This document shows, piece by piece, positions 41,001-41,874 of a DNA stretch of 64,000 bases. Position 1 is the stretch's first letter. The number at the start of each line of letters is the position of its first letter. The notes beneath the pieces are model-generated. The model was not told where the DNA came from. It saw only the letters and a program-made list of their open reading frames with translations, and made no database searches. A program made the position numbers and the translations under genes. Source of the DNA: the human T2T-CHM13v2.0 reference genome, Homo sapiens; contig CP068257.2 in assembly GCA_009914755.4 (NCBI GenBank), positions 37,856,001 to 37,920,000 on the forward strand. The letters are read 5' to 3'.

Positions 41001-41119
41001 GGGGAACATGGTGAAGTCCCTTTAGGTATCTTTGACAAGTAAGCTCTTGCTGCCTTCTGGTTTTAAACTTCCCTTGATGATGGAAAATAATTATGTAATT
41101 CTTACTAGTTTGATAAGTG
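41001..41119 (+). repeat. Left arm of a ~120-bp inverted repeat. It pairs with 41756-41874.
   Basis: 'ggggaacatggtgaagtccctttaggtatctttgacaagtaagctcttgctgccttctggttttaaacttcccttgatgatggaaaataattatgtaattcttactagtttgataagtg' is about 90% identical to the reverse complement of 41756-41874. Confidence 0.8.
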
Positions 41120-41265
41120 CCACATATTAGTGAACATTTATTAAGTGTTAATAAGACAATAGAATCTGATAATGGATCTTGAGGACATGGGCGAATGCTT
41201 AAATATTGTGAGCCATACAGATAGGACAGCATGCGTGAAAACCCCTAAAGACATGAAGTGCATTA

Positions 41266-41452
41266 GCCGGGTGGGGTGGCTCATGCCTGCGGTCCCAGCT
41301 ACTTGGGAGGCTGAAGCCTGAAAATCACTTGAACCCGGGAGGCAGAGGTTGCAGTGAGCCAAGATTGCACCACTGCACTCCAGCCTGGGTGACAGAGCAA
41401 GACTCTGTCTCCAAAACAAAAACAAAAACAAAAAACAAAACAAAACAAAACA
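41266..41452 (+). mobile_element. Alu right-monomer (FRAM-like, or a 5'-truncated Alu) with a (CAAAA)n tail, inside the inverted-repeat spacer
   Basis: 'gccgggtggggtggctcatgcctgcggtcccagctacttgggaggctgaagcctgaaaatcacttgaacccgggaggcagaggttgcagtgagccaagattgcaccactgcactccagcctgggtgacagagcaagactctgtctcc'. Confidence 0.85.
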
Positions 41453-41755
41453 GAAGACATTAAGTGCTATAAAAATATCTGTTTTTTCCTGATATTTGGC
41501 AAATACCTAGGTACATGTTGTATTATTATTAATATGATTGGCTTTGCAACTGAATTTGAGGCCATAGTTTATTCTCTAGGGCAACATTGCTCATGGTTTT
41601 GCTCTGGAGCTATAAGCGTTTTTTAAAAAATTTAAAAAAGTTTAGTCTTTTTATCTCCCATATTATGCCTCCACTGAAAATTAAGACGGCTTTTTGGGCT
41701 GTTACTCTCAGGAGATAATGATGGAATATGCACTCATTATTCTCTAAATGAGAGA

Positions 41756-41874
41756 CACTTATCAAACCAGTAAGAATTACATAATTATTTTCCATCGTCA
41801 GTAGAAGTTTAAAATTACAAGGCAGCAAAAGCTGACTTGTCAAAGATACCTAAAGTGACTTCACCATGTTCCCC
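41756..41874 (-). repeat. Right arm of the ~120-bp inverted repeat
   Basis: 'cacttatcaaaccagtaagaattacataattattttccatcgtcagtagaagtttaaaattacaaggcagcaaaagctgacttgtcaaagatacctaaagtgacttcaccatgttcccc'. Confidence 0.8.

What the first reader, a model, noticed from the sequence alone, without database searches (positions are those of the whole stretch)
41001..41874. A ~120-bp inverted repeat of about 90% identity flanks a 636-bp spacer. It may be a TIR-bearing nonautonomous DNA transposon or a local inverted duplication.
Sequence 41001-41119 is almost the exact reverse complement of 41756-41874. The shared block reads '…ggggaacatggtgaagtc[c/a]ctttaggtatctttgacaagt…ttttaaactt…gatggaaaataattatgtaattcttact[a/g]gtttgataagtg'. 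The spacer contains an Alu right-monomer insertion at 41266-41452, so the structure predates that Alu. Arms this long are not typical of the short human MITEs I know, such as MER and MADE1. I do not recognise the sequence as a named family. It could be an old hAT or Tc1-type element with long TIRs. It could also be a locus-specific palindromic duplication able to form a large hairpin or cruciform.
Basis: seen in the sequence. Interest (0 to 1): 0.5.

Follow-up and report, generated by a model that had tools for sequence, protein, structure and literature searches.

The report
Old 128-bp inverted repeat pair
Two 128-base stretches in Alu-rich primate non-coding DNA are 88% reverse-complementary copies 618 bases apart, most likely a decayed local inverted duplication rather than a transposon, and nothing suggests a function.

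Summary
Bases 41001-41128 and 41747-41874 are reverse complements at 88% identity without gaps (E 2e-38). They lie 618 nt apart and could form a long hairpin as single strands.

A 5'-truncated AluS, with its own 14-nt target-site duplication, sits in the spacer. This is the only non-Alu inverted repeat of this size in the window.

The transposon features I could test were not met:
- No target-site duplication abuts the repeat ends.
- The ends (GGGGAACATGG) do not resemble the terminal motifs I recall for hAT, Tc1/mariner or piggyBac elements.
- No second copy was found in the window or in any accessible collection. None of those collections holds primate genomes, so this is weak evidence.

The mismatches are spread randomly. 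They amount to about 4-6% per arm, the same age class as AluS elements in this window.

My best reading (about 50%) is a locus-specific inverted duplication made by a replication template switch roughly 25-45 million years ago and decaying neutrally since. An uncatalogued or unrecognised long-TIR transposon remains possible (about 20%).

RepeatMasker/Dfam, genome-wide BLAST and primate alignments would settle the question, but I could not run them. Ordinary; low interest.

The parts
41001..41128 (+). Arm 1 of the inverted repeat. The core 41001-41119 is 90.8% identical to arm 2, and identity fades over 41120-41134. Possibly the copy.
41747..41874 (-). Arm 2 of the inverted repeat, the reverse complement of arm 1 at 88.3% identity (113/128, no gaps). 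Possibly the source.
41129..41746. 618-nt spacer. About 412 nt of it is not Alu-derived. It shows no significant similarity to the arms, and its non-Alu part has no match elsewhere in the window.
41262..41453 (+). 5'-truncated AluS: right arm plus an A-rich tail (tail at 41412-41452), inserted in the spacer.
   Evidence: (only Alu/SRP-type Rfam hits)
41248..41261 (+). Left target-site duplication of the Alu insertion (AAGACATGAAGTGC).
   Evidence: 13/14 direct repeat
41454..41467 (+). Right target-site duplication of the Alu insertion (AAGACATTAAGTGC).
41854..41888 (-). Short Alu-like string (AluSx positions 78-113, 27/35) that straddles the outer end of arm 2. Its origin is unexplained. It hints that arm 2 plus its right flank is the native context.
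40973..40976 (.). TTAA lying 24 nt outside arm 1. With its partner at 41889-41892 it is a candidate, weakly supported, for outer transposon ends with a TTAA or TA duplication.
41889..41892 (.). TTAA lying 14 nt outside arm 2, the partner of 40973-40976.

Best explanation
This is a locus-specific inverted duplication. In an anthropoid or catarrhine ancestor, a stretch of about 120-130 bp was copied in reverse-complement orientation a few hundred bases from its source. The most likely cause is a replication template switch: the nascent strand copied briefly from the opposite strand and then returned. This is the same kind of event as the inverted-repeat-creating types of the four-point model, but on a larger scale. 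The two copies started identical and have since decayed neutrally to 88% identity. A truncated AluS lies between them. The pair has no evident function. If the region is transcribed it would fold into an imperfect 128-bp duplex, but that would be a by-product. Shown directly: the repeat and its sharp limits, the absence of a target-site duplication, the random spread of mismatches, and an age class like that of AluS. Inferred: the template-switch mechanism, the date, and the direction of copying (arm 2 to arm 1).
For: - The arms are gap-free and have sharp ends, and there is no further palindromic similarity nearby.
- No direct repeat of 2-11 bp abuts the ends, even when the boundaries are allowed to shift.
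- The 15 mismatches (9 transitions, 6 transversions, one in a CpG context) are placed as randomly as permutations (p 0.13-0.29). There is therefore no sign of constraint.
- Per-arm divergence is 4.3-5.6%, within the range of AluS copies in the same window (1.3-9.6%, most 4-8%). It lies above the window's 4 AluY copies (1.3-4.4%) and below its 9 AluJ copies (8-14%).
- No other copy was found: not in the window, not in the 5.8-billion-cluster protein collection searched with an ORF over arm 1 and with six-frame translations of both arms, not in metagenome or prokaryote genome collections, and not in paper texts.
- A short Alu-like string crosses the outer boundary of arm 2 but stops at the boundary in arm 1, as expected if arm 2 sits in its native context.
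- Template switching is documented to create new inverted repeats in human and chimpanzee genomes (PMC5453318).
Against: - The documented short-range template switches are tens of bases long and act within tens of bases. A 128-nt copy placed 400-600 nt away is larger (PMC5453318).
- No outgroup sequence was available, so it is not shown that one arm is younger than the other.
- The negative copy-number searches are weak, because none of the collections holds primate genomes.
- Microhomology at the junctions cannot be assessed after this much decay.
- TTAA tetranucleotides lie 24 and 14 nt outside the arms, with weak intervening similarity (p about 0.05). This leaves some room for a transposon with eroded ends.
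Confidence: 0.5

Rival explanations
1. A non-autonomous cut-and-paste DNA transposon about 670-710 bp long before the Alu insertion, with long (about 130-150 bp) terminal inverted repeats. It would belong either to a catalogued family that neither reader recognised or to an uncatalogued low-copy family. It would have inserted before the AluS piece.
For: The architecture, long inverted ends around a non-coding core of a few hundred bases, is that of a MITE. TTAA occurs outside both arms at 40973-40976 and 41889-41892, followed by CCAGA-AC / CTAGAGAC. This could be a TTAA or TA duplication with eroded outermost ends. Copy number in a primate genome could not be tested.
Against: - No target-site duplication sits at the sharp repeat ends.
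- The stretch between the TTAA sites and the arms is only about 64% alike with two indels, against 88% and no indels in the arms. It is therefore not of the same age.
- The termini GGGGAAC do not match the hAT (YARNG), Tc1/mariner (CAG.. next to TA) or piggyBac (CCC next to TTAA) ends that I recall for human families (own knowledge).
- piggyBac-type MITEs have 13-15 nt TIRs, not 128 nt (PMC2268245).
- If the arms were identical at insertion, the date (AluS age class) falls at or after the time DNA transposition is reported to have stopped in anthropoids (Pace and Feschotte 2007, own knowledge; that paper is not held in the library).
- No related sequence was found anywhere accessible.
Confidence: 0.2
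2. Two ancient copies of the same old interspersed repeat, possibly MIR, inserted independently in opposite orientation. Their central 128 nt were later homogenised by gene conversion or by template switching between the quasi-palindromic arms.
For: With permissive scoring, the arm-2 region aligns to a recalled MIR consensus over about 200 nt (41691-41902, minus strand, 65% identity). This beats 99% of 200-300-nt background pieces of the window (p 0.003-0.006). The inner flank of arm 1 aligns to the MIR tail in register (p 0.013). Homogenisation of non-identical inverted repeats by template switching is described in the literature (abstract of PMC8604942).
Against: nhmmer with the consensus, and with a profile built from six bona fide MIR copies in this window, finds nothing in the region even at E 100. 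Stricter scoring is at shuffle level. The arm-2 flanks and the outer flank of arm 1 are individually not significant. The consensus was recalled from memory, although it is validated by six clear hits elsewhere in the window. Several scoring schemes were tried, which inflates the p values.
Confidence: 0.15
3. A selected structural element: a long hairpin RNA (a dsRNA substrate for editing or small-RNA production), or a DNA structure with a regulatory or recombinational role.
For: There is strong predicted pairing of the arms.
Against: Mismatches are numerous (12%) and randomly placed, with internal loops in the predicted stem. There is no pattern suggesting that pairing is maintained. No Rfam family matches apart from Alu-derived hits. 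No evidence of transcription is available.
Confidence: 0.03

Closest known systems
Inverted repeats created by replication template switching (four-point model; Loytynoja and Goldman 2017, PMC5453318)
   Same: A reverse-complement copy of nearby sequence, with sharp ends, no target-site duplication, no mobility, and creation of a hairpin-forming repeat.
   Different: The published events are tens of bases long and local. Here the copy is about 128 nt and lies 400-600 nt from its source. The event is old (12% divergence), and it is not demonstrated with an outgroup.
Human MITEs and non-autonomous DNA transposons (MADE1, MER families; piggyBac-type MER75/MER85)
   Same: Inverted ends around a short non-coding core, of primate age.
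   Different: There is no target-site duplication at the ends, no canonical terminal motif, and no second copy found. The arms are far longer than the 13-15 nt TIRs of piggyBac-type elements (PMC2268245).
Inverted Alu pairs
   Same: Similar arm identity (73-96%) and spacing (33-2808 nt) to the 24 other listed inverted pairs in this window, all Alu-Alu. The same capacity to form intramolecular duplexes.
   Different: The arms are not Alu; only a 26-35 nt Alu-like string sits at one end. The two arms also begin and end at the same positions, which independent insertions would not do.

Membership tests
TIR (cut-and-paste) DNA transposon / MITE | Terminal inverted repeats at both ends of the element | tested here: met
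   128-nt arms at 88% identity.
TIR (cut-and-paste) DNA transposon / MITE | Target-site duplication directly flanking the inverted ends (8 bp for hAT, TA for Tc1/mariner, TTAA for piggyBac, 9-10 bp for MuDR) | tested here: not met
   A systematic scan of boundaries 40940-41005 / 41870-41935 with k = 2-11 found nothing at the sharp ends 41001/41874. The only candidate is TTAA, 24 and 14 nt further out.
TIR (cut-and-paste) DNA transposon / MITE | Superfamily-typical terminal motif | tested here: not met
   The ends read GGGGAACATGG. The motifs compared (YARNG, CAG.., CCC) are from my own knowledge, not from a library search.
TIR (cut-and-paste) DNA transposon / MITE | Multiple dispersed copies with the same termini | not testable with these tools
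   No copy was found in the 64-kb window, in protein collections, in metagenome or prokaryote contigs (only chance 20-22-mers), or in paper texts. None of these holds a primate genome or Dfam.
TIR (cut-and-paste) DNA transposon / MITE | Empty site in an outgroup lacking the whole element | not testable with these tools
   No orthologous primate sequence could be obtained.
piggyBac-type MITEs (MER75, MER85, Looper) | Short (13-15 nt) TIRs abutting a TTAA duplication | tested here: not met
   The TIR length is taken from PMC2268245. Here the arms are 128 nt. The TTAA sites are separated from them by 24 and 14 poorly matching nt.
MIR SINE (as the origin of the arms) | Significant similarity to the MIR consensus | tested here: inconclusive
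   Permissive alignment gives p 0.003-0.006 for the arm-2 region. nhmmer, a profile of in-window MIRs and stricter scoring find nothing.
Alu SINE (the insert in the spacer) | Similarity to the Alu consensus, an A-rich tail, and a flanking target-site duplication | tested here: met
   The AluSx right arm shows 6.8% non-CpG divergence. The A-rich tail is at 41412-41452. The flanking direct repeat matches at 13/14. Rfam SRP and Alu-derived miRNA hits fall below threshold.
Template-switch inverted duplication | Reverse-complement copy close to its source, with sharp ends and no target-site duplication | tested here: met
Template-switch inverted duplication | Only one arm present in an outgroup, and microhomology at the junctions | not testable with these tools
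   No outgroup sequence was available. The junctions are too decayed to judge microhomology.

The most novel reading that the evidence does not exclude
The pair marks an uncatalogued, low-copy DNA transposon family with unusually long (about 130 bp) terminal inverted repeats. It would have been active in anthropoid primates at about the AluS period, that is, at or after the reported end of DNA transposition in this lineage.
Probability: 0.08. Interest if true: 0.45.

Novelty: new member of a known kind. Interest (0 to 1): 0.14.

Why it matters
It matters little. It is one more example of how small inverted repeats arise and decay in primate non-coding DNA. It could serve as a datable case of a larger-than-usual template-switch event if primate alignments confirm that one arm is derived. 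If instead it proved to be a transposon, it would add a late-acting long-TIR family to the human repeat catalogue. Nothing here points to a function or to genome instability. The 12% divergence and the 618-nt spacer are, from general knowledge of inverted Alu pairs, outside the range that destabilises DNA.

Tried and rejected
- **JCAD locus.** An ORF at 54188-54514 matches Pfam JCAD, and I first placed the repeat in a JCAD intron. Further pieces lie in different frames with stops. It is a pseudogene, so orthologous loci could not be fetched through the gene, and the locus remains unidentified. A literature search for a KIAA1462 pseudogene gave nothing useful.
- **Arms as MIR.** This looked convincing by eye. 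It was rejected by strict alignment and by nhmmer and a profile search. Permissive scoring partly revived it for the arm-2 region only. I leave it inconclusive.
- **Arms as Alu.** Only a 26-35 nt string at the outer end matches.
- **Upstream extension of the spacer Alu.** An apparent extension to 41224 is 33% diverged against 6.8% for the right arm, so it is not part of the insertion.
- **piggyBac-type element.** The TTAA sites suggested this. The published TIRs are 13-15 nt, and the consensus sequences could not be obtained from the papers or their supplements.
- **Copy-number proxies.**
  - Protein-collection searches with an ORF across arm 1 and with six-frame translations of both arms gave no hits.
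  - 20-mer scans of metagenome and prokaryote genome contigs gave only chance matches that do not extend.
  - A sequence-string search of papers found nothing.
- **Other internal tests.**
  - No third copy of the arm lies in the spacer.
  - There is no larger palindrome around the pair.
  - Mismatches are not clustered, so there is no sign of patchy conversion or constraint.
- **Rfam.** Only Alu-related sub-threshold hits appeared.

Full report
**Observation.** The window is Alu-rich primate DNA: about 33 Alu intervals, 14% of the sequence. Bases 41001-41128 and 41747-41874 form an inverted repeat of 128 nt at 88% identity without gaps, separated by 618 nt. A blastn alignment of the two halves gives 118/135 identities with one gap, E 2e-38. 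The repeat does not extend further. The inner flanks are unrelated (p 0.67), and the outer flanks are only marginally similar (p about 0.05). No colinear inverted matches exist within 5 kb on either side. As single-stranded DNA the region folds with the arms paired: -179.9 kcal/mol against -93.8 for shuffles, z -17. Of the 25 listed inverted pairs of at least 60 nt within 3 kb in the window, the other 24 are all Alu-Alu pairs.

**The spacer.** It consists of the right arm of an AluS (consensus about 133-282, 8/117 non-CpG differences, 6.8%) plus an A-rich tail. It is flanked by a 13/14 direct repeat, AAGACATGAAGTGC at 41248-41261 and AAGACATTAAGTGC at 41454-41467. An apparent extension of the Alu alignment upstream to 41224 is 33% diverged, so I do not count it as part of the insertion. 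The remaining 412 nt or so of the spacer resemble neither the arms nor anything else in the window. Rfam gives only sub-threshold Alu-related hits.

- A systematic scan of all boundary pairs around the arm ends, for direct repeats of 2-11 bp, found no target-site duplication at the sharp ends. The only candidate is TTAA at 40973-40976 and 41889-41892, which lie 24 and 14 nt outside the arms.
- The sequence between those TTAA sites and the arms is about 64% alike with two indels, against 88% and no indels inside the arms. It does not look like the eroded tip of the same repeat.
- The termini read GGGGAACATGG. From my own knowledge this matches none of the hAT, Tc1/mariner or piggyBac terminal motifs of human families.
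- piggyBac-type MITEs, the only human families with TTAA duplications, have 13-15 nt TIRs (PMC2268245). Their consensus sequences could not be retrieved from the papers.
- No other copy of the arm was found in the window. Two searches of the large protein collection, one with an ORF across arm 1 and one with six-frame translations of both arms, found nothing. 20-mer scans of metagenome and prokaryote genome contigs returned only chance 20-22-mers. A search of paper texts found nothing.

These negatives are weak, because no primate genome or repeat library was within reach.

**Is it built from a known repeat?**
- By eye the arms resembled MIR. A MIR consensus recalled from memory finds six clear MIR copies elsewhere in the window, but not the arms, and strict alignment of the arms is at shuffle level.
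- With permissive scoring, the arm-2 region aligns over about 200 nt at 65% identity. This beats 99% of background pieces (p 0.003-0.006).
- However, nhmmer and a profile built from the in-window MIRs find nothing there, and flank-only tests are mostly non-significant. I leave MIR ancestry as inconclusive.
- A short Alu-like string (27/35, AluSx positions 78-113) straddles the outer end of arm 2. It is the only such fragment outside true Alus in the window. In arm 1 only the part inside the repeat is present. This hints that arm 2 with its right flank is the native context and arm 1 is the copy.

**Age and mode of decay.** The 15 mismatches comprise 9 transitions and 6 transversions, one of them in a CpG context. 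They are distributed as randomly as permutations (p 0.13-0.29), so there is no sign of constraint or patchy conversion. Non-CpG divergence is 8.5-11% between the arms, or 4.3-5.6% per arm. In the same window the 4 AluY copies show 1.3-4.4%, AluS copies mostly 4-8%, and the 9 AluJ copies 8-14%. The arms therefore began to diverge in the AluS age class, roughly 25-45 million years ago by the usual dating of Alu subfamilies (own knowledge). This is indistinguishable from the age of the Alu piece between them (6.8%).

**Best explanation (about 50%).** This is a locus-specific inverted duplication. A stretch of about 120-130 nt was copied in reverse complement a few hundred bases away, most plausibly by a replication template switch, and both copies then decayed neutrally. 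Template switching is documented to create new inverted repeats in the human and chimpanzee lineages, although on a scale of tens of bases (PMC5453318). The mechanism, the date and the direction of copying are inferred. The sharp gap-free arms, the absence of a target-site duplication, the neutral decay and the lack of other copies are shown.

**Rivals.**
- A long-TIR non-autonomous transposon, catalogued but unrecognised or uncatalogued (about 20%).
- Two old repeats in opposite orientation whose centres were homogenised (about 15%).
- A selected hairpin (about 3%).

**Novelty and interest.** This is an ordinary kind of feature and carries no indication of function. It would become mildly interesting only if it proved to be a late-acting long-TIR transposon family. 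It would also gain some interest if primate alignments made it a clean, dated example of an unusually large template-switch duplication. RepeatMasker/Dfam, genome-wide BLASTN and a primate alignment of the locus would decide between the readings within minutes. None of these could be run here.

Noticed in passing
window 54203-58259 (+): A JCAD (KIAA1462)-derived pseudogene. Five ORF pieces match Pfam PF15351 colinearly (profile positions 1-100, 496-585, 665-754, 1076-1189, 1191-1261), but they lie in different frames with stop codons. An AluS is inserted at 54668-54969. The window is therefore not the functional JCAD gene.
   Followed up: partly
window 41854-41888 (-): A 26-35 nt Alu-like string (AluSx positions 78-113, 27/35) crosses the outer boundary of arm 2. 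It is the only short Alu-like fragment outside real Alus in the whole window. Its origin is unexplained.
   Followed up: partly
window 40979-41039 (+): The outer part of arm 1 is framed by splice-site-like motifs...ttctattaaccag|AACGCTCC... and ...TTTGACAA|gtaagc. One frame is open across it (RSSGNTGEHGEVPLGIFDK). No Pfam or protein match was found, so this is probably chance.
   Followed up: partly
window 38992-39106 and 39727-40190: Long, imperfect (AC)n/(TG)n microsatellites with higher-order periods of 29-31 and 19 nt lie about 1-2 kb upstream of the repeat. They produce long artefactual Cys/Val-rich and His/Thr-rich ORFs.
   Followed up: no
window 7822-8175 (-): A His-rich and Thr-rich ORF of 117 aa that reflects a simple trinucleotide-type repeat, not a gene.
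   Followed up: no
window 20926-21513 (-) and 23077-23496 (-): ORFs that look like LINE-1 ORF2 C-terminal and ORF1 fragments. They were recognised by eye and not tested.
   Followed up: no
window 63298-63544, 47993-48185, 36587-36739, 10066-10183, 13305-13382, 12223-12297: Six MIR copies, detected with a MIR/MIRb consensus recalled from memory (E 3e-12 to 0.01). They were used as positive controls.
   Followed up: yes
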